Origin: Spirochaetia bacterium
GTDB taxonomy: Bacteria; Spirochaetota; Spirochaetia; WTKD01; G963693115
DNA length: 64,000 nucleotides
Reading direction: 5' to 3'
NCBI GenBank assembly: GCA_965216965.1
Contig: CBDCGX010000014.1
Span: 29,445-93,444 of the forward strand
In this document: positions 2,163-59,513 of the stretch, piece after piece
How the letters are laid out: every line of letters starts with the position of its first letter
Numbering within the stretch: the first letter of the stretch is position 1
Notes under the pieces: model-generated
The model's input: the letters and a program-made list of their open reading frames with translations, nothing else
Told to the model about the DNA's origin: nothing
The model's database searches: none
Translations under genes and position numbers: made by a program

Positions 2163-2274
2163 TATTAAGGCTTTTTTATATCTAAAAAATGAAAAATATT
2201 AAAAATCCCTCTTGCACAAATATTTATATATTTACTATCATTTGAATGGGCATGCAAATAAAGAAAAACAATAA

Positions 2275-2551: not shown

Positions 2552-2570
2552 AAAAGAGGCTTACCTCTTT

Positions 2571-3466
2571 ATGAAACATTTTGATCTAATAATTATTGGC
2601 GGTGGTGCAGGGCATTTTCAGCTGCTATTCATGCTAACGAATTAAAAGTAAACACATTTACAACGGAGTTCTTCTATTTTTTCTTGCTCTGAAAGAGAGC
2701 TTGTTAATTGCCTTTCTCAAGTACTCATAAATGAAAATATTACTATCAAAATAAACATCACACTAAAACACATAGAAAAATCAGATAAAAAAAACTATTA
2801 CTTTTGACAACAATGAAAAAAAATAAAAAATCGTGGCCGAAGAAATACTATTAGCTACTGAAAAAACGCCAAACACTAGAAAAATTAGGATTGAAAAAAC
2901 TGGAGTTCTGCTTAATGAAAATAATGTAATTATTGTAAATAAGAATTTCCAAACTTCAAATAAAAATATTTTTGTAATAGGTGATGTAACAAATGCTCCA
3001 CTTAGGATTGAAGCTACTGCGGGACGCGAAGGCACCTATGCTGCCGAAAACATCCTTGAAAGAACAGAGGTTTCTATTGATTACAATGCGGTATCATATA
3101 CGATTTTGACTGACCGCAACTTATTGGTGTTGAGAGTTGACAGAAAAAGAACAAATACAACAAATGAAGACTTGTGCGTACCGCACTGTATTTTTTCGGA
3201 TATGCCAAAAGCAATTATTATGCGTAAATACAGAAGGAGCAATAAAAATGATAATACATCCGAAAACAAAATAAATTCTTGGTGTTCATATTCTTGGAGA
3301 GACTGCTGCATAAATTATTAAGCAAACAATGATATTAATAAAAAACAAGAATGCTATTTATAATATAACAGATTCTTTGCCTATATTTCCAACATTGTCA
3401 GAAACGTTAAAAATTGTTTCGCTTTCATTCACTAAAAACATTCATGAGGTGAGTTGTTGTATATGA
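2571..3466 (+). pseudogene. Pyridine nucleotide-disulfide oxidoreductase of the MerA / mercuric-reductase-like type, decayed (internal deletions, stops, frameshifts)
   Basis: It starts MKHFDLIIIGGGAG (the FAD GxGxxG motif) and then breaks. Later fragments are EEILLATEKTPNTRKIRIEKTGVLLNENNVIIVNKNFQTSNKNIFVIGDVTNAPLRIEATAGREGTYAAENIL, then ..IDYNAV.. and ..GAIKMIIHPKTKQILGVHILGETAA.., ending PIFPTLSETLKIVSLSFTKNIHEVSCCI*. A C-terminal Cys-Cys pair is typical of MerA-like enzymes. Only ~900 nt remain of an expected ~1350. Confidence 0.75.
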
Positions 3467-4008
3467 AAAATATATTATTTACTGTCTTTTTAGCAACAAA
3501 AACAATATTTACCATTAAATGGTATGAATTTTTGTTTTGTGGATTAACACTGTTTTCTATTAGTGTTTATATTGTTCTTCCTGTTGTAGTAACTTCAGAA
3601 ATACCCCTTAGTCTCCAATTAAACTTGCTTACTACACGTGATTATGTATCATTTATTATACTTTCATAAACTATTTCTATCTTATATACTCAAGTAGACC
3701 TTTTTACTTTCTCGATTAAAAAGAGAATTTTTACGTGCTACAAAACAAGATTTTTTAGGATTTTTCTCTGCTCTTTTTGGAGGTTTATTAGGAACAACTA
3801 CATGTCCATCATGTATCCTAGAAATTCTCTGCCTTTGGGGAGTAGGTAGCACACATTTTTTCTAAATAATCAAATATATGTGTTTATACTGGCTATTATT
3901 CTTGTTGCAATGAGCTTTTATTTTACCTCACGCAAAATTGTAGGCTATGATACTTGTAAAGTGATGGTTAAAAAATGGTTTTTTAAAAAAAACATCTTGT
4001 ATAAATAA
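3463..4008 (+). pseudogene. Small polytopic membrane protein with a CPSC (CxxC) motif, frameshifted; third gene of the decayed cassette
   Basis: Its ATG at 3463 overlaps the oxidoreductase stop (ATGA). The frame breaks at 3669. Other frames continue with ..FLGFFSALFGGLLGTTTCPSCILEILCLWGVGSTHFF* and then ..FFLNNQIYVFILAIILVAMSFYFTSRKIVGYDTCKV..*. Confidence 0.5.
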
Positions 4009-4078
4009 ATATTTCAAACAAAAATGTAATGTAATATAATATACATATAAAAAAAAAATTAAAACATTGGTACCCTCA

Positions 4079-4108
4079 TTGACATGTTTCATGCAATTAA
4101 GATACTAT
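4079..4108 (+). promoter_or_regulatory. Candidate sigma70-type promoter of the nusA operon
   Basis: TTGACA (4079-4084), an 18-nt spacer, then TACTAT (4103-4108), ~40 nt upstream of the nusA ATG. Confidence 0.4.
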
Positions 4109-4146
4109 ACATAATATAAACAAAATCATTATTTAAGCGAGATTCT

Positions 4147-5748
4147 ATGAATGACCTTTCTAATATTATTAACGAACTCAAAACCCAAAAAAGCCTTCCA
4201 GAAGATTTAATAAAAAGCATTATTGAAGATTTTCTTAAAATTGTATATAAAAAACGTTATGGTAGCGATGAAAATGCAATAGTAGATTTTACTCAAGACA
4301 ATAATAATGTAACTCTTTTTTCAAAAAAAAGTATAGTAGAAAATGTACTAGACGATGTATTAGAAATATCTTTAGAAGAGGCAAGAAAGTTTGAAAGAGA
4401 ATGTGAGATTGGAGACAAGCTCCTCATAGAAATTAAACCAGAAAGTTTTACTCGCACTGAAATTCTTATTGGAAGTCAAAGAGCTGTTCAACGATTAAAA
4501 GAATTTGAGAACGATTCAATTTTATCCGAATTTAAAAATAAACTCGGTGAAATTGTAATAGGGTACTACCTTAGAGATAATAATAGAAACATAATAGTCG
4601 ATTTAGGTCGGGTAGAGGGTATATTGCCATCAAATTTTCAATCACCTAAAGAAGTATACAGAATAGGAGATAAGATAAAGGCTCTTGTTTATTCAGTAGA
4701 AAAGAAAGGAAATAAGCTTGACGTTATACTTAGTCGTGTCCATGTTGATTTTGTAAAAAAAATATTTGAGCTTGAAATCCCCGAAGTATATGATGGGGCT
4801 ATTGAAATAGTAAAAATTGTAAGAGAACCAGGCTATAGAATAAAAGTTGCCGTGCAATCTGATCAATCAGACATTGACCCAGTCGGCACATGTGTAGGAG
4901 CAAAAGGGGCTAGAATTAATAATATTATTCTTGAACTTGATAATGAAAGAATAGATGTATTGAAATACGATAAAGACCCATTAAAATTTATTCACAACGC
5001 ACTTTCTCCAGTTGAGGTTAAACAAGTGGTTGTTACCGATTATGAGAAAAAAACTGCACTCGCCATAGTAGAAGATGAAAAGTTCTCTATCGCCATAGGT
5101 AAATTAGGGCTTAACGTAAGATTAGCAAATAGGCTTACCGATTGGAACATTAATGTGAAAACCGAATCAGAATATAAAGAAATAGATGATTCTAGTGTTT
5201 CTGCAAAAATGCTTTTTGATTCCGAAGAGCCACAAGGTGCTCCTGAAGAAGTAGAAGAAATTGATATTTCCAAAGTATCAGAGCTTTCTGAGTTACAAGA
5301 AGCTATCGTGAAAAAATTAGAGGCGACAGAACTTGGATATATAGAAGATCTTCTTCAGATATCTAATAATGACCTATTAGAAAAAGGGTTTACAGAAGAT
5401 GAAATAAATCATATTCGATCTGTTATAAGTAGTACTATAGAAATAAAAGAAGAAGAAGCTAGCGAACAAAAAGCAATAAAGGAATCTTCTGAATCTACTT
5501 CTGAAGATGAAGATTCGGCAATAAAAAAAGATGAGGAAGAATATTTTGAAGCAGAAAATCTGTCTGTAAATGCATTGCCATTGAGAGAATCAATACTCTA
5601 TAAACTTGTAAATGAAAATATTAATAAATTATATGACCTTGTAATGCTTTATTCTAAAAATAAATTATTTACAACAATAGAATTCACAGATGAAGAAAAA
5701 AAAGAACTAGAACAAGTAATACAAAGCAATATTCAATACGAAGAATAA
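4147..5748 (+). CDS. nusA: Transcription termination/antitermination factor NusA, with two C-terminal acidic HhH repeats
   Basis: The S1 and KH regions are recognisable (..VDPVGTCVGAKGARINNIILELDNERIDVLKY.., ..KLGLNVRLANRLTDWNINV..). Conserved nusA-infB-rbfA-truB order. Confidence 0.95.
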   Translation: MNDLSNIINELKTQKSLPEDLIKSIIEDFLKIVYKKRYGSDENAIVDFTQDNNNVTLFSKKSIVENVLDDVLEISLEEARKFERECEIGDKLLIEIKPESFTRTEILIGSQRAVQRLKEFENDSILSEFKNKLGEIVIGYYLRDNNRNIIVDLGRVEGILPSNFQSPKEVYRIGDKIKALVYSVEKKGNKLDVILSRVHVDFVKKIFELEIPEVYDGAIEIVKIVREPGYRIKVAVQSDQSDIDPVGTCVGAKGARINNIILELDNERIDVLKYDKDPLKFIHNALSPVEVKQVVVTDYEKKTALAIVEDEKFSIAIGKLGLNVRLANRLTDWNINVKTESEYKEIDDSSVSAKMLFDSEEPQGAPEEVEEIDISKVSELSELQEAIVKKLEATELGYIEDLLQISNNDLLEKGFTEDEINHIRSVISSTIEIKEEEASEQKAIKESSESTSEDEDSAIKKDEEEYFEAENLSVNALPLRESILYKLVNENINKLYDLVMLYSKNKLFTTIEFTDEEKKELEQVIQSNIQYEE

Positions 5749-14486: not shown

Positions 14487-16221
14487 ATGTGTATCTTACA
14501 CGGAATGTCCGTATCTAAAGGAATTGCTATAGCTCCTGCCTATGTATTTCTTTCCGATACGACCATGATGGTTCCTCGTTATTATGTAGAAAACTATAAT
14601 ATAAAACAAGAAATACTACGTTTAGAAAATGCAATGGAAGAAGTGAGAACCGATATTTATAAAACATATGAAAACCAAAATAACAAAGTAGCAAAAAACA
14701 TTTTAGAAACACATACATTTATACTTGAAGATAATGAACTCATAGAAAAAATCACTCGTACCATAGAAAAAGAATATTTTAATGCAGAATGGGCCGTAAG
14801 AATTATTACTAAAGAATACATGCATAAATTTGCTATTATGGAAGATGAATATTTCCAGCAAAGGACCCATGATGTAAATGATATAGCACTTCATATTATA
14901 AATAAATTAGGCAGTAATAATAAATGTGAAAAAAACAACCTAGATGCACCAAAAATAATTGTTGCTAATACGCTTCTTCCAATGCAATTTTTACGACTTC
15001 CAAGAAAAAATATTGCAGGGATAATATTAGAAAAAGGTGGAAAAACAACTCATGTAACCATAATAGCAAAAGCATTTAGTATCCCTATGATTATTAATGT
15101 AAAAAATATTAGCAAAATACTTCCTAAGCAAAATCTCATACTTGACGCAAACACTGGACAAATCATACTTAATGCAAATGAGCATACTATAAAAGTATTT
15201 GAAATTGAAGATGAAAAAAAGAAAAAAGAAAAATCTTCTCAAGAGGAGAAAGTTCAATCTTTAAAACATTGTACAAAAGGACAATCAAATTATGACTTTC
15301 CAAATTAATGTTGATATACTAGAAGAGCTTGATTGCCGTGCAATTGAATATACTGATGGTATAGGGCTGTTTAGAACAGAATTTATATTTCCTAATATTT
15401 CTCCCTTGCAAGATAGCGAAGAAGAACAATACACAGCCTATCTAAACATATTCAAATATATGAAAGGAAAACCTATTACTATCCGAACATTTGATTTTGG
15501 AGGAGAAAAAAAAACAACAAAAATACAAACATCAAAAGAAAACAATCCGCTTTTGGGAATAAGAGGAATACGATTTTACCATAAAGATAATCAAGAACTA
15601 TTTTTATCTCAATTGCGCGCACTTCTTCGAGCATCTTTTATTGGAAAGCTTAATATTCTTCTTCCCATGGTGTCTACTTTAGAAGAAATATATACAATCA
15701 AAGAATATTTAGAAGCCACAAAAGCAGAAATTTCTTCTCAGGGGATTTTAGGCACTCCCCAATATAAATTAGGAGTAATGATAGAAGTTCCCTCACTTTT
15801 ATATCAATTGAAAGAAGTATCACAAATTTGTGATTTTTGGTCTATAGGAACCAATGATCTCCTACAATACATAATGGCAACCGATAGGAGCAATAGTAAT
15901 GTAGAATATCTTTATTCCTATATGCAACCTGCTTTTTTAAGAGTCTTACAAAAAATATTCTACGAAGGATACAAGTATAAAACAGAAGTAATTATGTGTG
16001 GAGAAATGGCAAGTGATATATATTCAATACCTCTTTTATTGGGAGCAGGGTTAAGAAACTTTAGTGTTTCTCTTTCAAATCTTGCAGAAGTAATCAATAT
16101 CGCAACATCATACAATACCAAAGATACACGAGAGCTATTTGAACGTGCTGTTATGTGCAATTCTGTTAAAGCAGTCGAAAAAGAAGTAAAAGAATTTATA
16201 AACAACTTTAACGTACATTAA
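14487..16221 (+). pseudogene. ptsI: PTS enzyme I (phosphoenolpyruvate-protein phosphotransferase), split by a single-base frameshift near 15277-15282
   Basis: ORF 14487..15308 carries the N-terminal and His domains (GGKTTHVTIIAKAFSIPMI). ORF 15292..16221 carries the PEP-utiliser barrel (GIGLFRTEFIF, NDLLQYIMATDRSN, CGEMASD). Removing one base in ACAAAAGGACAAT restores ..HCTKDNQIMTFQINVD... All catalytic motifs are intact. Confidence 0.85.
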
Positions 16222-41665: not shown

Positions 41666-43768
41666 TTAAAGTTTTTTCTTTTTATTATAATTACTACCCA
41701 TAAACAATTCAATTACCTCAATTTCTTTTTTGCATTGTAATAATTGCTCTCTAAACTCCTCATGTTGAAGGAATGTATTAACCTGAGTAAGGATTCCTAA
41801 ATGAGGGTATTCTTTAGGAACAGCTATTAGCACGAAAATATGAGAAGGTTTTTTATCAAATGAATCAAAATCAACTCCTTCCTTCTTTAAGCCAATTACA
41901 ATCTTAGGTAGTTTGCAGGCTTGACTCCTCGCATGGGGAATAGCTATACCATATTGCATTCCTGTGGAAAATGTTTCTTCTCTCTCAAATATATCTTTCA
42001 ACAAAAGTTTTATATCACTTAAATAACCGCCCTTTGCGAGAAGACTCGCAAGTTCTTCTATAACCTTATTTTTTGAGTGAGCTTGTATTGACATATTAAC
42101 TAAAAAAGGTGAAATGAAATTTTCCAACGAAGCATCTTGCGAAGCATCTCTTTCAATTCCTAGTGTGTTTTTTGCAATTTGATTTACTCGCTCTTTTACT
42201 ATTTGAGCAGATTCTGCAATATCAGTGGCAGCTTCGTATAATGCAGTTTTAAAGAAAGGGATGCTTTGTTTATCAGAAAAAAATATCAACTTTCCTGTAT
42301 TAAAAGAATGAAGAGTAAAAAACATATTATCTTTTCTTATGTGATATATGTTTCTATCAGACTGACCAATTTTATTGGTAAGGAACCCTTCTTCTTCCAT
42401 CAGAATTAGAAAATCAGAAACTATAAATCGTGCAAGTTGCCAATGTTCAAAATCAATTTCAGTTTTTTCTGTGTTAGTCTTCTCAGGGTGATATGTTCCT
42501 TTTTTAGGTAAAGAAATCAATATATGGAGAAAGAATGGAGCTAACAACGCATTAATAATTACCATCATCATTACAGCATTATACAATGTGTTATTTATTA
42601 TTCCCGCAGAAAGACCTAAACTTCCAATAATGAGAGCAACTTCTCCTCGAGGTGCCATTCCTGTTCCAATGCGTGTAGCTCCAAGCACATTAAACCCAAG
42701 CCCCAAAGAGGGGAGTCCTGCCCCAAGAAACTTTGCAATCATGCACATTATGCTATAGCCCATACCTAATAAGAAAATTTCAGGTTTTAAAAACTCAAGA
42801 ACAGAAATCTGCATTCCACTTACAATAAAAAATATGGGAACAAATAATAAAAGAATAGGAGAAAGCTTTTCCTGTATTACATATGACAGATCAGTGTTAG
42901 AAATTGTAAGCCCTATAACGTAAGCTCCAATAATCATGGATAGCCCCCATGTTTCAAACAATGCCCCAAGAAAAAATGCCATTCCCAAAACAACTATAGA
43001 AATGCTTGTTATATCACCTATTGTCTTTTTAAGCCCTCGCCCTAACTTTCTTGCAAAAAGAATTCCTATGACTGTCGAACCTAACCATATACCCAAAGAC
43101 TTTATAGCGATAAAAAATATTTTTATCATGTCTGGTGCAGCTCCTACTTGTGTTTTCACATCGCTAATCCCTATTACTATAGCGAGAATAACAATTCCTA
43201 TAACATCATCAAATACTGCTGCCGAAAGAATAGTAACACCTTCAGGGCTACTTATTTTTCTTTTTGATGATAAAACACTTGTAGTAACTCCTACAGATGT
43301 CGCAGTAGCTATAGTTCCCATTAATAAATGAGATGGATGAAATGGCGGCAACCCAGGAAAAAATAGTGTGCTTATATAGTATCCCCCAAAGAATGAAGCT
43401 ATAACTCCTCCTAGACCAACAATAGTTCCCTTGAGTGCATATCGCATAAATAGGTTTACATCTGTTTCTAGCCCAGAATGGAATAACAACATTACAGAGG
43501 CTATTATAGAAAGGTCAAGAAGATTCCTAGAAACATTTATTCCTCCTTCAATGCCCTTAGGAAATATACCATGAGGGAAAAAAGAGGTAAAAGGGATGCC
43601 CCCTAAAACAAATGGACTTAAGAATACTCCTATAATAATATATCCAACAACACTAGGGATTGAAATTTTCTTTGATACCTTATCTACAAGGAATGCACAT
43701 ACTATTATGACAGATAGTTGAAATAACAATACAGTTGTTGAATAAAGTGCGTTGGTGCCTTCTTCCAT
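41666..43768 (-). CDS. Cation:proton antiporter (Na_H_Exchanger/CPA family) fused to an unassigned cytosolic module and a C-terminal PTS EIIA type-2 (Fru/Ntr) domain
   Basis: 700 aa. Residues ~1-425 are polytopic (..LLFHSGLETDVNL.., ..GAYVIGLTISNTD.., ..GMAPRGEVALII..). Residues ~550-700 carry the EIIA-2 pattern ..REETFSTGMQYGIAIPHARS...PSHIFVLIAVP.., with the phospho-acceptor at His612. Confidence 0.85.
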   Translation of the reverse strand: MEEGTNALYSTTVLLFQLSVIIVCAFLVDKVSKKISIPSVVGYIIIGVFLSPFVLGGIPFTSFFPHGIFPKGIEGGINVSRNLLDLSIIASVMLLFHSGLETDVNLFMRYALKGTIVGLGGVIASFFGGYYISTLFFPGLPPFHPSHLLMGTIATATSVGVTTSVLSSKRKISSPEGVTILSAAVFDDVIGIVILAIVIGISDVKTQVGAAPDMIKIFFIAIKSLGIWLGSTVIGILFARKLGRGLKKTIGDITSISIVVLGMAFFLGALFETWGLSMIIGAYVIGLTISNTDLSYVIQEKLSPILLLFVPIFFIVSGMQISVLEFLKPEIFLLGMGYSIMCMIAKFLGAGLPSLGLGFNVLGATRIGTGMAPRGEVALIIGSLGLSAGIINNTLYNAVMMMVIINALLAPFFLHILISLPKKGTYHPEKTNTEKTEIDFEHWQLARFIVSDFLILMEEEGFLTNKIGQSDRNIYHIRKDNMFFTLHSFNTGKLIFFSDKQSIPFFKTALYEAATDIAESAQIVKERVNQIAKNTLGIERDASQDASLENFISPFLVNMSIQAHSKNKVIEELASLLAKGGYLSDIKLLLKDIFEREETFSTGMQYGIAIPHARSQACKLPKIVIGLKKEGVDFDSFDKKPSHIFVLIAVPKEYPHLGILTQVNTFLQHEEFREQLLQCKKEIEVIELFMGSNYNKKKKL

Positions 43769-43846
43769 ATCTAAACTCCGATAACTATAATTTACATATA
43801 GTATAGCACCAATCTTAAGTCTATTTGGTGATTTTGTAATAGAAAA

Positions 43847-45944
43847 TTAGCTATATGAACAAAAAAGATCAACTACTGATGTTTCACTTGTACATGCAAG
43901 TAGTTTTTCTCTAAATATAGCATCATTTAAAAACTTAGTTACCTGTGAAAGGATGCCTAAATATGCAAAATCTTTAGGAATAGCAAATAAAATAAAAATA
44001 TTTGAAGGTTGTTTATCCATAGAATCAAAATCAATTCCTTCTTTTTTAATTCCAATTACTATTTTTGGTTCTTTACATGCAATACTTTTGGCATGGGGGA
44101 ATGCAACTCCTTTCTCAAGACCTGTAGAAAAAGTATTTTCTCTTTCCAAAATATCATTTAAAAAGACTTGCTTGTCATGCAAAAAACCCCCCTTATCAAT
44201 TAAATTGATAAGTTCTTCTATTACTTCTTTCTTAGTTTTTGACTTTATTTGTAAAAGAATTAAGAAAGGAGAAAGAACAGATTTTATATCAATTTTTTCT
44301 GGAGAAGAAACAAGGGGTAATGACACCTCTTGTTTCTTGATTGTTTTCTCATTAAATATTTTAATTTTTTTCTCCAATATATGGGCAGACGCTGTAATAT
44401 TCATTGCGGCTTCGTAGAGTGCAGTTTGAAAAAAGGGAACACTCTGTATATCAGAAAGAAAAACTATTTTTCCTTTAGAATGCACATGCATAGTAATAAA
44501 CATGGCATTTTTTCTAATGTGATAGATGTTTTTTTCTTTTGATCTAATCTTATTTATAAAAAAACTTTCTTCTTCCATCAACAATAAAAAATCATCTACA
44601 ATAAATCGAGTAAGTTTGGGGTCTTCTATATCTACTTCAACAGAATGGTCTTCACTTTTAATTGTTTTTTTAGTCCCCATTTTCTGAGATGTGTATAGTG
44701 TTTGAGCTACAATTGAGGTAACAAATGCACTGCTTATAATCATAAACATAATCGCACTATACAAAGAACTTGTTATAAAACCTGCCGATAGGGCAAAGCT
44801 TCCTACAATAAGCGAAACTTCCCCTCGTGATACCATTCCTATTCCTATACGTGTTGAACCAAGGCTATTAAAACCAAGAAAAAAAGAAGGAATAGCAGAT
44901 CCAATAAACTTTGTTATAATAGCAGCAAAACTAAGCAATATACCTAAGAAAAGCACAGAGGGGTTTAGAAATTCTGGTATGTTTACTTTCATTCCACTTA
45001 CAATAAAAAATATTGGTATAAAAAATTTAGAAATTGGAAACAGCTTTTCTTGTATAACATATGAAAGATCTGTATTAGAAATGGTAAGCCCCACAATGTA
45101 GGCACCCACTATTATAGACAACCCTAATATTTCAAAAACTCCCCCTATAATAAGTGTCATACCAAATACAAAAAGAGCCATGTGTATTGTGTTTTTTGTT
45201 GTTTTCTTAATCCAGTAACTTATTTTTCTTGAACAAACAATTCCAATAATAGTAGAACCAGCCCATAAAGCAATTGCTTTTATAGTAATAATAATTATTT
45301 TAACAGCACTAATAGAAGAAGACGCATCATTAGTATTATGCAGCTCAGAAACTCCTAGGACTATAGCAAACAATATAATGCTTATCACATCATCAAAAAT
45401 TGCAGCTGCAAGTGTAGTAACACCTTCTGGAGTACTCATCTTCTTTTTACTAGAGAGTACATTTGTAATAATCCCTATTGACGTTGCACTACTTGCCACG
45501 CCTACAAATAAATGAGTGCTATGAAACGCACTTAAGTCTGGAAAAATAAATTTACTTACAAGGTAGCCCCCTAAAAAATGAGACAGTAATTTCACTTATT
45601 CCTATGAGACTTCCTTTTATAGAATAACGAAGGAAGAGATTGACATCTGTTTCAAGCCCCGAATAAAAGAGTAGGGTAATTGCTGCTATATTTGAAAAAT
45701 ATTCTAAAACTTGAACATGCCCCCCTCCTGTGCCTTCGCCAAATAAACCATTTGAAAATATAGAACCAAGTGATATTGACCCTAGCATGAATGGACCTAT
45801 GATAATACCAAAAATGATATATCCTATAGTGCTTGGCATAGCAAGAAGTTTGCTTATTTTCTCTGCCATTAACCCACCAATTGTTACAACTCCTATTTGA
45901 ATTATAAGTTGAATAATAAGGTTTGTATTTTCAAAGGATCCCAT
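43847..45944 (-). pseudogene. Paralogous antiporter-EIIA fusion, interrupted by a single-base frameshift in a T-run near 45576-45581
   Basis: ORF 45552..45944 is the N-terminal 130 aa and ORF 43847..45595 is the rest. It has the same three-part architecture as the neighbour (..GLETDVNL.., ..GAYIVGLTISNTD.., ..RENTFSTGLEKGVAFPHAKS..). On the minus strand the break reads TCATTTTTTAGGGGGCTAC. Deleting one T gives ..SFLGGYLVS.., aligning with ..SFFGGYYIS.. in paralogue 1. Confidence 0.8.
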
Positions 45945-46082: not shown

Positions 46083-47138
46083 ATGAAAACAAAATCGAGT
46101 AATACTTTCTATTCTCCTCATAAAAAAAAACATTCTTTTATTATGTATCTTCTCATCATATTTCTGATGGTATTTATCCCATTTTTGTTTTCGTGTAATA
46201 AATCCAATACTCCACAAAAAGGACAGCCTAGTAAGAAACAAAATACAAAACTATTAAACTCCAAGAAAAAAAGAAATAACAAAATAAAAGAAAAAATAAT
46301 AAATATTGCAATTCAATCTATAAAACCCTCTTCTATTACAGAGCGAATACGTATGGGTGCACAGGTTACAAGTTTATCAAGAGTTAATCTTACTCCCAAT
46401 GCTGGAGGTACTATTACATCCATCATAGTAAAAGAAGGGGACTTTGTTAGAAAGAACACCACACTCTTGTATGTAGATTCTTCAAAAGCAGGAAAAAAAT
46501 TCCTTCCCAACCCTGTACGAACTCCCATAGATGGTATTATTGCATCTCTTCCATTAGGAGTAGGAAATACAGTAACAACGGCGACTCCTGTTGTTGTTAT
46601 AGTTGATAGTAAAAAGAAACATGTTACTGCATCTGTATCTGAAAAGAAAGTACTTCTAATTAAGAAGGGGCTTTCCGCTATATTCCACCCAATTGTATTT
46701 CCTACAACAAACATAGGCCTTACTATAAACGAAATAAGCTCAAAAGTATCAAAAAATCACTTGGGAAATATTATTCTTACATTTAAATCACCCCAAAAGA
46801 ATAAAAATATAATTGATACTCTTTTGCCAGGGATGTACGGAGCTCTTGTCATAGATATCAAAACATATACCAATAAAATTGTCGTGGATAGCAACACTAT
46901 TGTAATTAAACCATATAATGGGCAATATATGAGAGGGATTTTTACCGTAGATCCGTCAGAAAAACCACCACAAACAACTTTCAATCCTGTTACAACAGGT
47001 ATAGAGGATGCTAATAAAACTGAAATTACGAGTGGCATAAAAGAAGGTGACTTTGTAATTACTGAAGGACAAACCTTTGTCTTTCCAAACACAGAAGTAA
47101 CTATTATGAAAATAAATGGCGAATTACAAAAAATATAA
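46083..47138 (+). CDS. Efflux RND transporter periplasmic adaptor (membrane fusion) lipoprotein
   Basis: It has a lipobox (..PFLFSC-N), a lipoyl-like hairpin (..NAGGTITSIIVKEGDFVRKNTTLLYVDS..) and a beta-barrel C-terminus. It lies directly upstream of the RND permease. Confidence 0.8.
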   Translation: MKTKSSNTFYSPHKKKHSFIMYLLIIFLMVFIPFLFSCNKSNTPQKGQPSKKQNTKLLNSKKKRNNKIKEKIINIAIQSIKPSSITERIRMGAQVTSLSRVNLTPNAGGTITSIIVKEGDFVRKNTTLLYVDSSKAGKKFLPNPVRTPIDGIIASLPLGVGNTVTTATPVVVIVDSKKKHVTASVSEKKVLLIKKGLSAIFHPIVFPTTNIGLTINEISSKVSKNHLGNIILTFKSPQKNKNIIDTLLPGMYGALVIDIKTYTNKIVVDSNTIVIKPYNGQYMRGIFTVDPSEKPPQTTFNPVTTGIEDANKTEITSGIKEGDFVITEGQTFVFPNTEVTIMKINGELQKI

Positions 47139-47165
47139 TGTATTTTTACGAGGAGAAGCACATAT

Positions 47166-50100
47166 ATGATCATTTCAAAACTCATTAAAAAACCAATAAG
47201 TGTGCTCATTCTATTTCTTATAGCCATAGGATTTGGAATCTATGTCACGTTTAATCTCCCTATAGAGCTAATACCTAATATAGAGATTCCCACGGTATCT
47301 ATTATTACCAAGTATCAAAATACAAATGCCGAAGAAATAGAAGAAACTATTACAAAACCTATAGAGCAAGCACTTCAATCACTTAAAAATGTAAAAGAAA
47401 TATCTTCAATTTCTTTAGAAAATCAAAGTGCCGTAACTGTAGAGTTTGAATATGGAACTTCTAATTCAGATAATATTAATAACTTAAGAGAAGCACTTGA
47501 TCAAGCAAAAAACTTTCTACCAATTAATGCTAAATCTCCTATTGTCTTTCAATTTAATCCTAGTATGATTCCTGTTTTAGCACTTTCTATTTCTGGAAAT
47601 AGAACTGTTAATGATATACAAAAAATAACTGAAGATGTATTATTACCATATTTTGAGCAAATAGATGGCATTGCTAACACAAAAATTCTCGGTGGGGAAG
47701 TACAAAAGGTATTTGTAAATGTAGATTTATACAAGATAAAATCCTTTGGAATTACCACAACTGATGTAAAAAATGCTATTTCACTCAATAGCAAACGTAC
47801 CTCCCTTGGAACAATAGACACAGACTCCCTTAGTATTGCACTTCTCCTCAATACAAAATTTACAGACATAAATCAAGTAAAAAATGTTGTTGTTAAAAGC
47901 ATAGAAAATGCTAATGGAACTACAAGTTATATACGCGTTAAAGACGTTGCAGAGGTATATAAAGGATTTAAAAAAGAGTCCGAACAATATATATACGTAA
48001 ATGAAAAACCTTCAATAACTGTTCTTATTAGAAAACAAAACGATAAGAGCATAGTAGAAGTGTCAGATAATATCATAGCATCGCTAGAGCAAATAAAAGA
48101 AATTGCACCAGTTGATTTTAGTTTTGACATAATTGCTGATAATTCTCTCATGATACGAAATAACATAAAAACAATTATAGGTGCAATAATCTCAGGTGCC
48201 TTTCTTGCCGTTATAATATTACTTATCTTTTTAAGAAACATTGCCGCCGTAATGGTGATTTCCATTACTATTCCTGCATCCATTGTTCTTACTCTTATGC
48301 TTATGTATTTCTTTGACATGTCTCTTAATGTATTTACGCTTGCTGGACTTGCCCTTGGAATAGGTATGCTTGTTGACAATTCTATTGTCGTACTTGAAAA
48401 CATATATGCAAAAAGAATGAGTGGGTTACGCCTTCTTTCTGCATCAGAATACGGATCTACCGAAATGATGCGACCCATACTTACTTCTACGCTTACTACC
48501 ATTTCTGTTTTCTTACCAATGATTATATTTAAAAAAGAATTAGGTGTTATTGGATCACTTTTTGCTAACCTTTCCTTTACAGTTGTAATGTCTATTATTG
48601 CATCATTTCTTATTGCAGCATTTGTCCTTCCTGTTATTACAAGCACTTACATTAAAATACATCCACTAAAACATACGGGAACACTAAAAAAATTCGATAA
48701 AAAATTTGAAAACACGCTTGCTTCTACTTTAGATGTATACAAAAACATACTTTCTTATATGCTTTCAAGGAGAAAACGGTTTATAGCATTGATACTTCTG
48801 ATTTCACTTTTACCCCTTGCACTTATGCCAATATTCAAATTCCAATTCAATCCTGACGTAAAAAAAGATAATTTACAGGTAAATTTTACCTTTCCAAGTG
48901 GAACAAACCCCAAATATATGCGAGATATTATGCGAGAGCTCAATGTAAAAATAAAATCATTTATTCCTGATATAAAATATACATTGCTCAGCTCTTCTTC
49001 AAACAAAGGAGGAGCAAATAGCAACCCTATTGTTAGAGACAACGGGTATACCGCAGCCCCAGGAAAGGGGAAAATCACATACATTCTTACTAAATCAAAA
49101 AGTACTTCTGATCTTCAGAAAACGATAGAAAAAATAAATACAATTGCATCTCAATACATAGGAATAGAATATTCTGTCCATATTTCTGACAATAGAGCAA
49201 GTGGTAATTCTGTATTTTCGGGATCAAAATTTATCCTTAAAGTAAAGTCCGATAACTATAATAATTTACTTGAAACAGTGGAGACCTATAAAAGAGTCCT
49301 TGAAAAAAATCCTAAACTATCAAGAGTACGAGATGATCAAGCAAATAGAATTCCTGAATATACATTCAATATTGATACCGTAAAGGCAAACCTTGATAAT
49401 CTTACCGTAAATACAATTGCAACTGAACTAAAAAATTCTATTGCTGGTTCTACTGCTTCAAGATTTACTGAGGGAGCAAAGGAGAGAGATATATACGTAC
49501 AGCTCTCAGATAAATATAGAAAAGATACCACTATAATTGACCAAATTGATGTAAGAAATAAGAAAGGAGTACTTCTGCCTGTATCTAACTATGTTTCAAA
49601 AAAACAATCGCTTGGAATTTCTCAAATATCTCGCCAAGGATATCAAAGAACAATACAAATAACAGCAGATATCATACCAGGAGAAAGCGTAACAAAAGTA
49701 ATAAGCGAAATAAAAACCACCTTAAGGGGCATCCCTAAAGATGACAATCTCACATATATTTTTGATGGTAGCTACAAAGATTTACAAAAAAACTTTTCCC
49801 TTATGTTACAAATATTTCTAATTGCCGTTGTTTTTGTGTTTGGAATTATGGCAAGCCAGTTTGAATCATTATTAGATCCCTTTATAATTATTTTTACTAT
49901 ACCACTAACGCTTTTTGGGGTTCTGATAGTCTATGCAATTGTAGGACTACCAATTACTTCTTTTACTATGGTAGGACTGGTTGTACTTGTTGGTGTCGCT
50001 GTAAACCACGGAATTGTCTTAATAGATTACATTAATCTTCTTATCAAACGCGGAGAATCGTTAACCGATGCTATCCTTCACGCAGCCACAAGTAGATTTA

Positions 50101-50318
50101 CCCCCATTATGATAACAACTCTCACAACGGTATTTGGTCTTTTTCCTATAGCATTGTTTGACTTAGATGGAACAGAACTCATTCGACCAATAGCACTCAC
50201 CATCGTTGGAGGACTTTCTAGCTCTGCCTTACTCTCTCTTCTGCTCTCACCACTTATCTACTATTCTTTTAATAAAAAGAAAAATAAAAAACGCCTCATA
50301 CAAATTAATTCTATTTGA
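47166..50318 (+). CDS. Efflux RND transporter permease (AcrB/HAE1-like)
   Basis: 1050 aa with a 12-TM, two-large-loop architecture and blocks ..LAGLALGIGMLVDNSIVVLENI.. and ..GLVVLVGVAVNHGIVLIDYIN... No outer-membrane factor gene is adjacent. Confidence 0.93.
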   Translation: MIISKLIKKPISVLILFLIAIGFGIYVTFNLPIELIPNIEIPTVSIITKYQNTNAEEIEETITKPIEQALQSLKNVKEISSISLENQSAVTVEFEYGTSNSDNINNLREALDQAKNFLPINAKSPIVFQFNPSMIPVLALSISGNRTVNDIQKITEDVLLPYFEQIDGIANTKILGGEVQKVFVNVDLYKIKSFGITTTDVKNAISLNSKRTSLGTIDTDSLSIALLLNTKFTDINQVKNVVVKSIENANGTTSYIRVKDVAEVYKGFKKESEQYIYVNEKPSITVLIRKQNDKSIVEVSDNIIASLEQIKEIAPVDFSFDIIADNSLMIRNNIKTIIGAIISGAFLAVIILLIFLRNIAAVMVISITIPASIVLTLMLMYFFDMSLNVFTLAGLALGIGMLVDNSIVVLENIYAKRMSGLRLLSASEYGSTEMMRPILTSTLTTISVFLPMIIFKKELGVIGSLFANLSFTVVMSIIASFLIAAFVLPVITSTYIKIHPLKHTGTLKKFDKKFENTLASTLDVYKNILSYMLSRRKRFIALILLISLLPLALMPIFKFQFNPDVKKDNLQVNFTFPSGTNPKYMRDIMRELNVKIKSFIPDIKYTLLSSSSNKGGANSNPIVRDNGYTAAPGKGKITYILTKSKSTSDLQKTIEKINTIASQYIGIEYSVHISDNRASGNSVFSGSKFILKVKSDNYNNLLETVETYKRVLEKNPKLSRVRDDQANRIPEYTFNIDTVKANLDNLTVNTIATELKNSIAGSTASRFTEGAKERDIYVQLSDKYRKDTTIIDQIDVRNKKGVLLPVSNYVSKKQSLGISQISRQGYQRTIQITADIIPGESVTKVISEIKTTLRGIPKDDNLTYIFDGSYKDLQKNFSLMLQIFLIAVVFVFGIMASQFESLLDPFIIIFTIPLTLFGVLIVYAIVGLPITSFTMVGLVVLVGVAVNHGIVLIDYINLLIKRGESLTDAILHAATSRFTPIMITTLTTVFGLFPIALFDLDGTELIRPIALTIVGGLSSSALLSLLLSPLIYYSFNKKKNKKRLIQINSI

Positions 50319-57529: not shown

Positions 57530-58072
57530 ATGAAAATAATAAAAATTAGAAAAGAAGACACTATAGTAGATCACTATCTACATCAAACGGCTTATTACAA
57601 CACCATAAAAGCTACAATATGCCAGCCTCTTTCTATACGAAGAAATATAGATTGCCGCTCATTGTTTCCTAATAAAAGTTTTGTAAGAGTACATAAAAGA
57701 GTCAATAAAAGACAAAAGAAATGGTTTGAAAAAGGGTTTCCTCTCTATGGATTGCATTACGATTCATGTGAAAATATTGAAACTATGCTTTCTCACAGAA
57801 ATATTGCATATAAACACATATGTTTTGACATAGGCTTTGGAAAAGGAGAAACAATTTTCCAAATGGCATTAGATTCTCCTGACACCTTGTTTATAGGAGT
57901 AGAACCTTACAAAAAGGGGATAGAATCGTTATTATCGAAAATAATGCAGAATAACGTCAAAAATATTCTTATATTTCATTATGATGTAGTTCCTATATTG
58001 CTACATATGGTTCCAGATTGCACTCTTGATAGAATACAAATATTTTTCCCTGATCCGTGGCAAAAAAAACGT
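57530..58072 (+). CDS. trmB: tRNA (guanine-N7)-methyltransferase TrmB, 3'-truncated at the sequence join
   Basis: ..ICFDIGFGKGETIFQMALDSPDTLFIGVEPY... and ..IQIFFPDPWQKKR match TrmB. The family normally continues H-x-K-R-R plus ~60 aa. Here homology stops and the ORF ends after nine unrelated codons (at 58099). Confidence 0.8.
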
Positions 58073-58085
58073 CTGAGCACTTTAT
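58060..58085. other. Breakpoint between a spirochaete-like and a Campylobacterota-like sequence (probable chimeric join)
   Basis: Both flanking genes are truncated at this point. Local GC jumps from 27% (57961-58020) to 43% (58141-58200), both hand counts. An A8 run at 58062-58069 sits at the join. Confidence 0.75.
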
Positions 58086-58311
58086 GGAAACATTTGTAGA
58101 AAATCCTCAGTCTCAACTTCCTGGTACTTCTATGCCTAGAGTTGGGTTAAGTGCTGAAGGGTATGAGCATGTCAAAGCATATCTTGAAGAAGTGGGTGAT
58201 CCAAGTAAACCTAAAAGAGAAGCAGTAGGTCCATGGGTTCTTGGGTTCTTCATTATCTTTACGATACTAGCGTTCTTATGGAAAAAAGAACAATGGAGAG
58301 ATTTACACTAA
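58075..58311 (+). CDS. C-terminal fragment of a membrane-anchored c-type cytochrome (PetC / cytochrome c1-like of the Campylobacterota bc1 complex); 5' part missing
   Basis: ..FMETFVENPQSQLPGTSMPRVGL... carries the PGT.MP Met-ligand motif and is followed by a C-terminal TM anchor (VGPWVLGFFIIFTILAFLWKK). There is no start codon, RBS or haem-binding CxxCH part upstream. The PetC assignment is from memory. Confidence 0.5.
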   Translation, partial: EHFMETFVENPQSQLPGTSMPRVGLSAEGYEHVKAYLEEVGDPSKPKREAVGPWVLGFFIIFTILAFLWKKEQWRDLH

Positions 58312-58532: not shown

Positions 58533-59513
58533 ATGCTTATAGATGGACATGGTCGCGAAGTTAATTATCTTCGTATATCAGTAACAGAACGTTGTAACTT
58601 TAGATGTCAGTATTGTATGCCTGAAAAACCTTTCTCTTGGGTACCCAAAGAGAACCTCCTTTCTTTTGAAGAGCTTTTTTTATTTGTAAAAGTAGCCATA
58701 GATGGTGGTGTCACTAAGATACGTCTTACAGGTGGTGAACCACTTTTAAGAGAAGACCTTGATACATTTATTAAGATGATTAATGAGTATAAATCAGGAT
58801 TAGATTTAGCACTTACTACCAATGCCTTTTTACTCCCAGAAGCAGCACAAAGACTTAAAGATGCTGGACTTAAACGTCTTAACATTTCGCTTGATTCTAT
58901 GAAGGCAGATGTTGCTGCCAAGATTGCAGGAAAAGATGTGCTTGGGGAAAGTATTTGAAGGTATAGACAAAGCTTTAGAAGTAGGCTTAAAAGTAAAAAT
59001 CAACATGGTGCCACTTAAAGGTATTAATGATGATGAGATTTTAGATGTGATGGCGTACTGTGAAAAAAATAATATGAAAGTACGTTTCATAGAGTATATG
59101 GAAAATGCCCATGCGGACCAAGCGCTTAAAAGGGATGCATGGTAGAGAGATACTTGAAAAAGTAAAAGAAAAATATACCATTAAGGCATTAGGTCGTGAG
59201 GGTGCTAGTCCATCGTTTAATTATCTCATAGAAGAGACAGGGTATGAGTTTGGACTTATAGACCCACATAAACATGATTTTTGTGAAAACTGTAACCGTA
59301 TAAGACTTACCGCGGAAGGAAATCTTATTCCTTGTCTCTATTTTGATGAAGCATATAAGTATTGCAGAATCAGTAAAAAAAGGTGATATTCAAGGTGCTG
59401 CGGATGTGCTAGCTAAAGTACTGAAAGACAAACCCAAAGAAAATCGTTGGTCAGAAGATGAACTTGAAGATAGAGAGATCTCTACACGTGCTTTTTATGA
59501 GACTGGTGGCTAA
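58533..59513 (+). pseudogene. moaA: GTP 3',8-cyclase MoaA (radical SAM) with three single-base frameshifts
   Basis: Homology runs through four frames: [30 protein letters not shown]...AGKDVLG | [31 protein letters not shown]...HADQALK | [11 protein letters not shown]...[25 protein letters not shown] | ..[18 protein letters not shown]...ETGG*. The shifts are at a GGGG run (~58949), an AAAA run (~59132) and ~59355-59362. Confidence 0.85.

What the first reader, a model, noticed from the sequence alone, without database searches (positions are those of the whole stretch)
41666..45944. Tandem cation:proton antiporters covalently fused to PTS EIIA domains: candidate phosphorelay-gated ion transport
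Two adjacent paralogues of ~700 aa share one architecture.
- A ~425-aa polytopic Na_H_Exchanger-type domain.
- A ~100-aa conserved cytosolic module I cannot assign.
- A ~150-aa PTS EIIA type-2 (fructose/mannitol/Ntr class) domain with the canonical phospho-His loop: GIAIPHAR (His612) in copy 1 and GVAFPHAK in copy 2.

It is established that free EIIA-Ntr (PtsN) of E. coli regulates K+ homeostasis in trans through TrkA and KdpD. Here the EIIA module is tethered to the transporter itself. That predicts EI/HPr(NPr)-dependent phosphorylation directly gating cation/proton exchange.

No EIIB or EIIC sugar components occur anywhere in the window. The only other PTS gene is ptsI at 14.5 kb. I am not aware of any functional study of this fusion, but I cannot search.
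Basis: partly seen in the sequence, partly recalled or inferred. Interest (0 to 1): 0.7.

Follow-up and report, generated by a model that had tools for sequence, protein, structure and literature searches.

The report
Ion antiporters fused to PTS EIIA
Two neighbouring spirochaete genes encode NapA-type cation/proton exchangers with a built-in phosphorylatable EIIA domain from the PTS signalling system; the design is widespread and apparently untested, and here one copy and the PTS enzyme I gene are each broken by a one-base frameshift.

Summary
The architecture is real. Copy 1 (41666-43768, minus strand, 700 aa) has three parts:
- a NapA-like CPA2 antiporter domain with the DD motif and the conserved lysine;
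- a roughly 100-aa domain that Pfam does not assign, predicted as beta-alpha-beta4-alpha;
- a PTS EIIA type-2 domain.

Arg596 and the phospho-His612 are invariant in 223 full-length homologues.

Copy 2 is not one ORF: a +1 frameshift at TTTTTTAGGGGG (45567-45578) splits it. It is also a long-branch paralogue that has lost the second active-site His (Tyr instead). The only ptsI in the window is split by a frameshift too, while its syntenic orthologue in a relative is intact. I cannot tell real decay from assembly error without reads.

The fusion is a large family, with over 2,400 database hits and over 560 loci in species-representative genomes. It occurs in Spirochaetota, Planctomycetota, Lentisphaerota, Fibrobacterota, Omnitrophota and Cloacimonadota, and is often mislabelled "fructose PTS IIA". 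I found no functional study.

The principle has precedents:
- Free, unphosphorylated PtsN inhibits the E. coli K+/H+ antiporter YcgO.
- The fused IIA domain of LacS is phosphorylated by HPr.

Gating by phosphorylation is therefore plausible but untested. I rate it a new variant of a known kind, of moderate interest.

The parts
41666..43768 (-). Copy 1: intact 700-aa antiporter-EIIA fusion gene
   Evidence: ORF list. Pfam Na_H_Exchanger plus PTS_EIIA_2. AlphaFold2 model of the full length: mean pLDDT 91.7, pTM 0.77.
42518..43696 (-). Copy 1 transmembrane domain (aa 25-417), NapA-like CPA2 antiporter
   Evidence: Pfam E 4.7e-52. Best solved relative by sequence is T. thermophilus NapA, 4bwz, E 3.7e-35. 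Foldseek top hit is 5bz2 (NapA, inward-facing): TM-score 0.92 normalised to the target, rmsd 2.2 A.
43205..43210 (-). Asp187-Asp188, the 'DD' ion and proton carrier motif
   Evidence: Lies in AAVFDDV, which aligns with AAVIDDV of NapA. Conserved in 223 of 223 homologues. Coordinates.
42731..42733 (-). Lys346, which aligns with a lysine in the NapA sequence
   Evidence: Aligned to the K of ILGKVLGG in NapA. Conserved in 223 of 223 homologues.
42167..42472 (-). Copy 1 middle domain (aa 433-534): unassigned beta-alpha-beta4-long-helix module
   Evidence: No Pfam hit at E<=10. AlphaFold2 model of aa 425-540: pLDDT 91.7. Best PDB fold matches reach only E 5e-3, TM about 0.55; they include the spermine synthase N-domain, phosphoglucomutase, RnlA, DCoH and KA1. 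F462, R478 and E512 are nearly invariant.
41702..42115 (-). Copy 1 PTS EIIA type-2 domain (aa 552-689)
   Evidence: Pfam PF00359, E 3.8e-33. NCBIfam TIGR00848, 105.5 bits against a cut-off of 103.5. Best PDB sequence matches are PtsN structures: 2a0j at 5.5e-10, then 3urr and 1a6j.
41933..41935 (-). His612 codon (CAT), the predicted phospho-acceptor in GIAIPHAR
   Evidence: Coordinates. H in 223 of 223 homologues. Arg596 (41981-41983) is also 223 of 223, and His656 (41801-41803) is 202 of 223.
45552..45944 (-). Copy 2, N-terminal fragment (130-aa ORF; first transmembrane helices, including the SGLETD motif)
   Evidence: ORF list. Pfam Na_H_Exchanger, profile positions 4-72 only.
45567..45578 (-). 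Frameshift site in copy 2: TTTTTTAGGGGG, with one base too many
   Evidence: Sequence. Deleting a T, the A or a G restores a 698-aa frame reading SF(F/L)GGY, as in the homologues.
43847..45595 (-). Copy 2, remainder (582-aa ORF; the GTG start is a mechanical ORF boundary)
   Evidence: Pfam Na_H_Exchanger profile positions 87-370 plus PTS_EIIA_2. The databases hold this same product as P0012, from the same 103,286-nt contig.
43862..44275 (-). Copy 2 EIIA-2 domain. The phospho-His of GVAFPHAK is at 44093-44095; Tyr replaces the second active-site His at 43961-43963.
   Evidence: Copy 2 deviates at 21 of 87 near-invariant family positions, against 5 of 87 for copy 1.
14487..15308 (+). ptsI fragment 1: EI N-terminal and phospho-His domains
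   Evidence: Pfam PEP-utilisers_N plus PEP-utilizers. TIGR01417 profile positions 1-261 of 565. The GGKTTHVTIIAK motif is present.
15272..15281 (+). Frameshift site in ptsI: TACAAAAGGA, with one extra base in the A4 or GG run
   Evidence: Sequence and my reading of the frames; the string itself is confirmed. The syntenic orthologue in a relative is an intact 573-aa EI.
15292..16221 (+). ptsI fragment 2: PEP-binding domain
   Evidence: Pfam PEP-utilizers_C, E 5.8e-81. TIGR01417 profile positions 278-563 of 565. The SIGTNDLLQY and MCGEMA motifs are present.

Best explanation
**What it is.** Copy 1 is an intact member of a large, uncharacterised family of secondary transporters. A NapA-type (CPA2, DD-motif) cation/proton antiporter continues into a cytosolic beta-alpha-beta4-alpha adaptor domain with a long helix. 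A short flexible linker follows, then a catalytically complete PTS EIIA type-2 domain.

**Proposed mechanism (inferred).** PEP phosphorylates EI, EI phosphorylates HPr or NPr, and that carrier reversibly phosphorylates His612. The phosphorylation state changes how the EIIA and adaptor unit packs against the transport domain. Cation/H+ exchange would thus follow the cell's PEP/pyruvate (carbon and energy) state. This would be a cis version of two known cases:
- free unphosphorylated PtsN inhibiting the E. coli antiporter YcgO;
- HPr-dependent control of the fused IIA domain of LacS.

Which state activates, and whether Na+ or K+ is carried, cannot be told from sequence.

**Copy 2.** It is a lineage-specific, fast-evolving tandem paralogue. 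As assembled it is inactivated by a +1 frameshift. The window's only ptsI is inactivated the same way. In this organism the relay may therefore be decaying, unless both lesions are assembly errors.
For: **Shown**
- Domain hits for both copies.
- NapA is the closest solved relative by sequence, at E 3.7e-35, and by fold, at TM-score 0.92 normalised to the target.
- D187, D188, K346, R596 and H612 are conserved in 223 of 223 full-length homologues, and H656 in 202 of 223.
- The full-length AlphaFold2 model is confident: pLDDT 91.7, pTM 0.77, with only 536-545 disordered.
- The family is large. There are 2,407 hits at E<=1e-5, and the top 120 all carry PF00999 plus PF00359. At least 568 loci occur in species-representative genomes of several phyla.
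- A stand-alone 'middle domain plus EIIA' protein exists (P0125), so the two cytosolic domains form a unit.
- The frameshifts are documented. Copy 2's divergence is documented.

**From papers**
- Unphosphorylated PtsN binds the cytosolic CorC/RCK region of YcgO and inhibits K+/H+ antiport (PMC11808508; 10.64898/2026.08.14.744764).
- PtsN also acts on TrkA and KdpD (PMC13104625).
- The IIA domain of LacS is phosphorylated by HPr~P, and this alters transport (PMC8154325).
- Planctomycetes and Leptospira have PTS phosphoryl-transfer proteins but no PTS permeases (PMC2405797). This fits a purely regulatory output.

**Inferred**
- Phosphotransfer to His612, its coupling to transport, and the direction of the effect.
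Against: - There is no experimental datum for any member of this family.
- The EIIA is not a PtsN equivalog. It scores below the cut-off of TIGR01419.
- The fusion gene is not linked to EI or HPr genes. Only 1 of 80 loci has an HPr homologue within 8 kb, and none has EI.
- In this window ptsI is split and no HPr or NPr is present. The phosphodonor may therefore be missing here.
- The tool returns no inter-domain error estimates or coordinates, so the docking of EIIA on the transporter could not be inspected.
- The middle domain has no significant structural relative, so its adaptor role is a guess.
Confidence: 0.6

Rival explanations
1. Both frameshifts (copy 2 and ptsI) are homopolymer indel errors of a low-coverage long-read metagenome assembly. 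In the living organism both antiporter-EIIA paralogues and EI are intact, and the relay is fully functional.
For: - Each lesion is a single extra base in or next to short homopolymers: T6/G5 and A4/GG.
- No other stop codon interrupts either gene, and the catalytic motifs are intact.
- The EI branch length is not unusual.
- Related MAGs come from assemblies with contig names such as ctg27826_8.02x_l, which suggests long reads at low depth.
- The syntenic ptsI of relatives is intact.
Against: - Frameshifts are not spread evenly. About 50 kb of other genes are intact, including gltB (1511 aa), mfd, acrB, infB and pnp.
- moaA alone carries three.
- If errors were uniform over the window's 1,868 homopolymer runs of at least 4 bases, the chance that two errors both hit the three PTS-related genes is about 0.01. 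This is my own post hoc arithmetic from the run counts.
- The window also holds an undoubted decayed gene remnant at 2833-3321.
- Copy 2 has lost family-invariant residues (P373S, P411S, H656Y), as expected under relaxed selection.
Confidence: 0.45
2. The signal runs the other way. The antiporter's conformation or ion load controls access to, or dephosphorylation of, the tethered EIIA. The protein would then be a membrane-anchored ion or pH sensor that feeds into the PTS phosphorelay, or sequesters HPr, rather than being gated by it.
For: - The cytosolic 'middle plus EIIA' cassette can exist as a separate soluble protein (P0125). It may therefore have partners other than the transporter.
- Long family members carry two EIIA domains in tandem, which is more than simple gating needs.
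- PTS phosphoryl transfer is reversible (established knowledge).
Against: - All documented EIIA-transporter pairs (PtsN-YcgO, PtsN-TrkA, IIAGlc-LacY/MelB, LacS) have the EIIA regulating the transporter (PMC11808508, PMC13104625, PMC8154325).
- The transport residues D187, D188 and K346 are invariant, so transport itself is under selection.
Confidence: 0.12
3. The EIIA-like domain is never phosphorylated. It serves as a structural, oligomerisation or ligand-binding cytosolic domain that merely keeps the EIIA fold.
For: - The domain is not linked to EI or HPr genes.
- The local ptsI is split.
- The second active-site His is replaced in 21 of 223 members and in copy 2.
Against: - Arg596 and the phospho-His612 are conserved in 223 of 223 homologues spread over several phyla. 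That is hard to explain without catalysis at this site.
- The NCBIfam IIA domain model is matched above its curated cut-off.
Confidence: 0.1
4. Copy 2 is expressed through a programmed +1 ribosomal frameshift at UUU-UUU-A-GGG.
For: Skipping the A would give SFFGGY, the same motif as in copy 1.
Against: - No copy-2 orthologue exists in which conservation of the site could be seen. Its best database match is 51% identical and belongs to the copy-1 clade.
- The window contains several other plain frameshifts.
- I searched for no stimulatory element, and none is evident.
- The T6 run is, from my own knowledge, too short for transcriptional slippage.
Confidence: 0.03

Closest known systems
Thermus thermophilus NapA (CPA2 Na+/H+ antiporter; PDB 4bwz, 5bz2)
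   Same: Closest solved relative of the membrane domain: E 3.7e-35 by sequence, 29% identity, and Foldseek TM-score 0.92 normalised to the target. The AAV(I/F)DD motif and a lysine in the NapA sequence align with D187, D188 and K346.
   Different: The solved NapA chains are about 385-394 residues and align only to query residues 22-422. The window proteins add a roughly 275-aa regulatory tail. Cation specificity here is unknown.
E. coli PtsN (EIIA-Ntr) acting on the K+/H+ antiporter YcgO/CvrA
   Same: An EIIA type-2 protein controls a cation/proton antiporter according to its His-phosphorylation state. Unphosphorylated PtsN binds the cytosolic C-terminal region and inhibits antiport (PMC11808508; bioRxiv 10.64898/2026.08.14.744764).
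   Different: That regulation is in trans; here the domains are covalently fused. YcgO is CPA1 with RCK and CorC domains. Here the transporter is CPA2, with an unrelated beta-alpha-beta4-alpha domain and no RCK or CorC hit. The fused EIIA does not reach the PtsN equivalog cut-off.
Streptococcus thermophilus LacS (lactose carrier with a C-terminal IIA domain)
   Same: A secondary transporter covalently fused to a PTS IIA domain. HPr~P phosphorylates that domain on His, which changes transport kinetics (PMC8154325).
   Different: The LacS domain is described as IIAGlc-like, whereas this one matches the EIIA_2 model PF00359. The carrier transports lactose rather than exchanging cations for protons. 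There is no intervening adaptor domain.
E. coli KefC/KefB (CPA2 K+/H+ exchangers gated by a C-terminal cytosolic domain)
   Same: A CPA2 membrane domain followed by a fused cytosolic regulatory domain that gates exchange. KefC structures are the next-best fold hits (8bxg, E 1e-11).
   Different: KefC is controlled by glutathione and its adducts (PMC11808508 introduction; PMC7349511). From my own knowledge, its regulatory domain is of the KTN/RCK type. The window proteins have no such domain and use an EIIA instead. Sequence similarity to KefC is weak (E 2.9e-6).
PtsN regulation of TrkA and KdpD
   Same: This links a regulatory PTS to monovalent cation homeostasis (PMC13104625).
   Different: The targets are a K+ uptake subunit and a sensor kinase, not an antiporter, and the interactions are in trans.

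Membership tests
CPA2 / NapA-type cation:proton antiporters | Match to the Na_H_Exchanger (PF00999) model over the whole membrane domain | tested here: met
   Copy 1: E 4.7e-52, profile positions 4-372 of 375. Copy 2: the two fragments together cover positions 4-72 and 87-370.
CPA2 / NapA-type cation:proton antiporters | NhaA/NapA fold of the membrane domain | tested here: met
   AlphaFold2 model with pLDDT 91.7. Foldseek hit to 5bz2: TM-score 0.92 normalised to the target, rmsd 2.2 A over 408 columns.
CPA2 / NapA-type cation:proton antiporters | Two adjacent aspartates (DD) in the ion-binding helix, plus the conserved lysine. That this combination marks electrogenic CPA2 members is from my own knowledge. 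| tested here: met
   D187, D188 and K346 align with AAVIDDV and the K of ILGKVLGG in NapA. All three are conserved in 223 of 223 homologues, and both copies have them.
CPA2 / NapA-type cation:proton antiporters | Measured cation/H+ antiport activity and its specificity | not testable with these tools
   Needs vesicle or proteoliposome assays.
NCBIfam TIGR00932 (CPA2 subfamily model) | Score at or above the curated cut-off (238.3 bits) | tested here: not met
   119.9 bits for copy 1. The protein is a divergent CPA2 relative that this model does not capture.
PTS EIIA type 2 (fructose/mannitol/Ntr class) | Match to PF00359 above the gathering score | tested here: met
   114.9 bits for copy 1 and 111.8 bits for copy 2, against a cut-off of 27. 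TIGR00848 scores 105.5 bits against 103.5 for copy 1, and 102.9 bits for copy 2, just below.
PTS EIIA type 2 (fructose/mannitol/Ntr class) | Phospho-acceptor His in the G-x-A-x-P-H loop, with the conserved Arg and a second His. The roles of these residues are from my own knowledge of EIIA-Mtl and EIIA-Ntr. | tested here: met
   Copy 1 has R596, H612 and H656. Across 223 homologues R and H612 are 100% conserved and H656 is 91%. Copy 2 keeps R and the phospho-His but has Tyr at the second His.
PTS EIIA type 2 (fructose/mannitol/Ntr class) | Phosphorylation by HPr~P or NPr~P | not testable with these tools
   Biochemical assay required. The window holds no HPr or NPr gene, and its ptsI is split.
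PtsN (EIIA-Ntr) equivalog | Score at or above the curated cut-offs of TIGR01419 (138.7) or NF008145 (221) | tested here: not met
   59 and 31.5 bits for copy 1; 62.2 and 43.7 bits for copy 2. PtsN structures are nevertheless the best PDB sequence matches (2a0j, E 5.5e-10). It resembles PtsN but is not a member.
LacS-type carrier-IIA fusions | IIAGlc-like domain on a sugar carrier | tested here: not met
   The only cytosolic Pfam hit is PF00359 (EIIA_2), and the carrier matches PF00999. This is a functional analogy only.
RCK/KTN- or CorC-regulated antiporters (KefC, YcgO) | A cytosolic RCK/KTN (TrkA_N/TrkA_C) or CorC domain | tested here: not met
   No such Pfam hit in either copy or in the middle domain at E<=10. 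Fold search of the middle domain returns no RCK or CorC structure.

The most novel reading that the evidence does not exclude
The antiporter-EIIA fusion may be a principal physiological output of the 'permease-less' regulatory PTS found in Spirochaetota, Planctomycetota, Lentisphaerota and allied phyla. In this reading, His-phosphorylation of the tethered EIIA acts through a previously undescribed beta-alpha-beta4-alpha adaptor domain. It switches an electrogenic NapA-type antiporter on or off, tying cytoplasmic pH and Na+/K+ balance directly to the PEP/pyruvate ratio. The joint decay of ptsI and one paralogue in this reduced genome would then be a natural 'co-loss' experiment supporting the functional link.
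Probability: 0.35. Interest if true: 0.65.

Novelty: new variant of a known kind. Interest (0 to 1): 0.45.

Why it matters
Many spirochaetes and Planctomycetes-like bacteria keep EI, HPr and EIIA proteins but have no PTS sugar permeases, and what this relay controls in them is poorly known. A transporter with the EIIA built in names one target without any genetics: cation/proton exchange.

It also gives a one-polypeptide system for studying how a phospho-histidine switch gates an elevator-type antiporter. That would complement the recent work on PtsN and YcgO acting in trans.

There are two practical points:
- Hundreds of these genes are annotated as "fructose PTS transporter subunit IIA". That label is misleading for metabolic reconstruction.
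- The middle domain deserves a family definition of its own.

Tried and rejected
- **Locating the source contig.** The exact-sequence look-up of copy 1 found no record. A single-protein scan of genome contigs found no relative; the alignment-based scan worked. The window's own genome is not among the species representatives.
- **Middle domain, Pfam.** At E<=10 only noise appeared (SPATA19, OTU). The precomputed PHL and EAD7 hits in homologues cover 30-40 residues and are marginal.
- **Middle domain, fold search.** Nothing reached E<=1e-3. I report only a topology resemblance to a beta-alpha-beta4-alpha sandwich of the TBP or KA1 type, not homology.
- **Middle domain, sequence search.** phmmer against 1.84 billion representatives gave just 11 hits, all from the same family or its fragments, plus one stand-alone cassette.
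- **Operon logic.** The promoter and terminator scan of 41.4-46.3 kb found promoter-like sites at the shuffled-control level and a few more terminator-like sites than the controls, none informative. EI and HPr genes are not near the fusion in 79 of 80 loci. Neighbours differ between the window, L001 and L083.
- **Faster EI evolution before the frameshift.** Not seen. EI is about 40% identical between all subclades, and the window's branch is ordinary.
- **Programmed frameshifting or slippage at T6AG5.** I consider this unlikely; see the rival explanations.
- **Literature.** The review I recalled on comparative PTS genomics (Barabote and Saier 2005) is not held, so I cannot say whether it lists this fusion. 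The 2026 PTS-Ntr review and the YcgO papers do not mention fused forms.
- **Docking of EIIA on the transporter.** Could not be examined, because model coordinates and error estimates are not exposed.

Full report
**Observation.**
The region holds three minus-strand ORFs, not two:
- 41666-43768 (700 aa);
- 43847-45595 (582 aa, with a mechanical GTG start);
- 45552-45944 (130 aa).

Pfam results are as follows.

| ORF | Na_H_Exchanger | PTS_EIIA_2 |
|---|---|---|
| 700 aa (copy 1) | aa 25-417, E 4.7e-52 | aa 552-689, E 3.8e-33 |
| 582 aa (copy 2, rest) | profile 87-370 only | present |
| 130 aa (copy 2, start) | profile 4-72 only | none |

The two shorter ORFs overlap at TCATTTTTTAGGGGGCTAC. Removing one base from the T6-A-G5 stretch (45567-45578) gives a 698-aa protein with no other stop. 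It is 49% identical to copy 1 over 679 residues.

GIAIPHAR has His612 at 41933-41935, and GVAFPHAK has its His at 44093-44095. But copy 2 is interrupted as assembled.

**The three modules.**
- *Membrane domain.* It is closest to Thermus NapA by sequence (4bwz, E 3.7e-35). The full-length AlphaFold2 model (pLDDT 91.7, pTM 0.77) superposes on inward-facing NapA, 5bz2, with TM-score 0.92 (normalised to the target) and rmsd 2.2 A. The aspartate pair D187-D188 and K346 align with AAVIDDV and a lysine in the NapA sequence. From my own knowledge, this combination marks electrogenic CPA2 antiporters.
- *EIIA domain.* It passes Pfam easily. It just passes the NCBIfam fructose-type IIA domain model (105.5 bits against a cut-off of 103.5). 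It fails the PtsN equivalog models (59 against 138.7). PtsN structures are nevertheless its best PDB sequence matches. I therefore call it an EIIA type-2 domain of undetermined subtype, not PtsN.
- *Middle region.* It has no Pfam match even at E<=10. Modelled alone, aa 425-540 folds confidently (pLDDT 91.7) as beta-alpha-beta-beta-beta-beta followed by a roughly 35-residue helix. The best PDB matches reach only E 5e-3 and TM about 0.55. They include the spermine synthase N-domain, phosphoglucomutase, RnlA, DCoH and the SAD-kinase KA1 domain. This is a topology resemblance, not an assignment. Residues 536-545 are a low-confidence linker.

**Family and conservation.**
- Copy 1 has 2,407 database hits at E<=1e-5. 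The top 120 all carry PF00999 plus PF00359.
- An alignment-based scan of species-representative genomes confirmed at least 568 loci.
- The 80 loci kept are mostly Spirochaetota (Treponema, Salinispira, Oceanispirochaeta). Planctomycetota/Phycisphaerae, Victivallales/Lentisphaeria, Fibrobacterota, Omnitrophota, Cloacimonadota and Delongbacteria also appear.
- Source names range from 'cation:proton antiporter' to 'fructose PTS transporter subunit IIA'.
- There are two length classes. The 850-920-aa class carries a second EIIA domain.
- In 223 full-length homologues D187, D188, K346, R596 and H612 are invariant, and H656 is kept in 202. In the middle domain F462, R478 and E512 are nearly invariant.
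- One protein (P0125, 281 aa) is a stand-alone 'middle plus EIIA' cassette. Its upstream gene is not an antiporter.

**Context in this genome.**
The window comes from an AT-rich (about 31% G+C) spirochaete. A FlaA fragment is present. The nearest genomes are 'Spirochaetia bacterium' MAGs of 1.8-2.3 Mb.

Tandem pairs of the fusion are rare. They occur in L052, L053 and L058, and not in the nearest relatives. Relatives do have two paralogues, but at separate loci: clade A, which contains copy 1, and clade B, which contains P0127.

Copy 2 has no closer orthologue anywhere; its best match is 51% identical. It sits on a long branch. It deviates at 21 of 87 near-invariant family positions, against 5 of 87 for copy 1. 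The changes include P373S, P411S and Tyr for the second active-site His.

**The PTS side.**
The window has no EIIB, EIIC, HPr or NPr. Its ptsI is split into 14487-15308 and 15292-16221 by one extra base near TACAAAAGGA. The catalytic His and Cys motifs are intact.

In a relative, the same gene order (RNase Y, FtsJ, Germane-domain gene, ptsI, der) carries an intact 573-aa EI. The split is therefore derived.

**Are the frameshifts real?**
*For real decay:*
- The window contains a clearly decayed oxidoreductase remnant inside about 2 kb of non-coding DNA.
- trmB is truncated.
- moaA is broken in three places.
- About 50 kb of other genes, including five of more than 700 aa, are intact.
- Given the homopolymer run counts, three of five uniformly placed errors landing in moaA has probability about 2e-5. 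Two errors both landing in the three PTS-related genes has probability about 0.01. This is my own post hoc arithmetic.
- Copy 2's loss of invariant residues fits relaxed selection.

*For assembly error:*
- Every lesion sits in or beside a short homopolymer.
- Each of ptsI and copy 2 has a single lesion.
- EI shows no accelerated divergence.
- Related assemblies look like long-read contigs at low depth.
- The moaA region lies in a block of different G+C (58-64 kb) that could be a poor or chimeric join.

I put real decay and assembly error at roughly even odds. Reads are needed to decide.

**Mechanism.**
*Shown:* a NapA-type antiporter core with its carrier residues, tethered to a catalytically complete and strictly conserved EIIA, through a conserved domain and a flexible linker.

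*Established elsewhere:*
- Unphosphorylated PtsN binds the cytosolic tail of the CPA1 antiporter YcgO and inhibits K+/H+ exchange (PMC11808508; bioRxiv 10.64898/2026.08.14.744764).
- PtsN also controls TrkA and KdpD (PMC13104625).
- The fused IIA domain of LacS is phosphorylated by HPr~P and modulates transport (PMC8154325).
- Planctomycetes and Leptospira have PTS phosphoryl-transfer proteins without permeases (PMC2405797).

*Inferred:* His612 is phosphorylated by HPr or NPr, and this changes how the cassette restrains the transporter. The direction of the effect and the cation carried are unknown. I give this reading about 0.6.

The alternatives are a sensor that feeds the PTS, a non-phosphorylated structural domain, and programmed frameshifting for copy 2. 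They are listed with their tests under the rival explanations.

**Novelty and score.**
The architecture is visible in domain databases and is very common, so the window genes are new members of an existing but uncharacterised family. Against characterised systems, the family differs in three ways:
- the EIIA is fused in cis rather than free;
- the transporter is CPA2 rather than CPA1 or a sugar carrier;
- the adaptor is an unassigned domain rather than RCK or CorC.

Seven literature searches and targeted reading found no functional study of the fusion. One possibly relevant review is not held.

A specialist would find the fusion a natural extension of known PtsN biology, not a surprise. It does, however, make the output of permease-less PTS relays directly testable. 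Interest: 0.45.

Noticed in passing
window 14487-16221: ptsI (enzyme I) is split into two ORFs by a single extra base near TACAAAAGGA (15272-15281). Its catalytic His and Cys motifs are intact. The syntenic gene in relative OZ245332.1 is an intact 573-aa EI.
   Followed up: yes
window 2165-4147: About 2 kb holds no intact gene. ORF 2833-3321 keeps only the C-terminal piece (profile positions 231-282 of 291) of a pyridine-nucleotide disulphide oxidoreductase. This is a decayed pseudogene remnant.
   Followed up: partly
window 57530-58311: trmB (Methyltransf_4) ends at profile position 88 of 173, just after an A8 run. The sequence then switches to a cytochrome-c-like fragment. In a relative (L083), mfd and trmB are followed by an M23 peptidase and the clade-B antiporter-EIIA paralogue, so synteny breaks exactly here.
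   Followed up: partly
window 58533-59513: moaA (radical-SAM GTP cyclase) is broken into four ORFs by three frameshifts, at G4, A4G3 and A7 runs. It lies in a block (58-64 kb) where G+C rises from about 0.31 to about 0.37. That block also holds a queE-like gene and cydAB. It may be acquired DNA or a chimeric or low-quality join.
   Followed up: partly
L082 410-1255 (protein P0125): A stand-alone 281-aa protein consists of the unassigned middle domain plus EIIA, with no transporter. Its upstream ORF is an unrelated small membrane protein, and an ATP synthase operon lies beside it. The cytosolic cassette therefore also exists as a free protein.
   Followed up: partly
L025, L037, L046 and proteins such as P0028: The 850-920-aa family members, found in Planctomycetota, Verrucomicrobiota and Thermodesulfobacteriota, carry two EIIA type-2 domains in tandem after the middle domain.
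   Followed up: partly
proteins P0097, P0178, P0024, P0044 and others: Public annotation often names these antiporter fusions 'fructose PTS transporter subunit IIA' or 'PTS sugar transporter subunit IIA'. That would mislead any inference of sugar uptake.
   Followed up: no
window 46083-50318: An HlyD-type membrane-fusion gene and an intact 1050-aa AcrB-family RND pump are transcribed divergently from copy 2. Nothing links them functionally to the antiporters.
   Followed up: no
window 43-573 and 1133-1207: A fragment of FlaA (the spirochaetal flagellar sheath protein) lies at the window start, which fits a spirochaete origin. The only RNA gene found in the window is a tRNA-Val (GAC).
   Followed up: no
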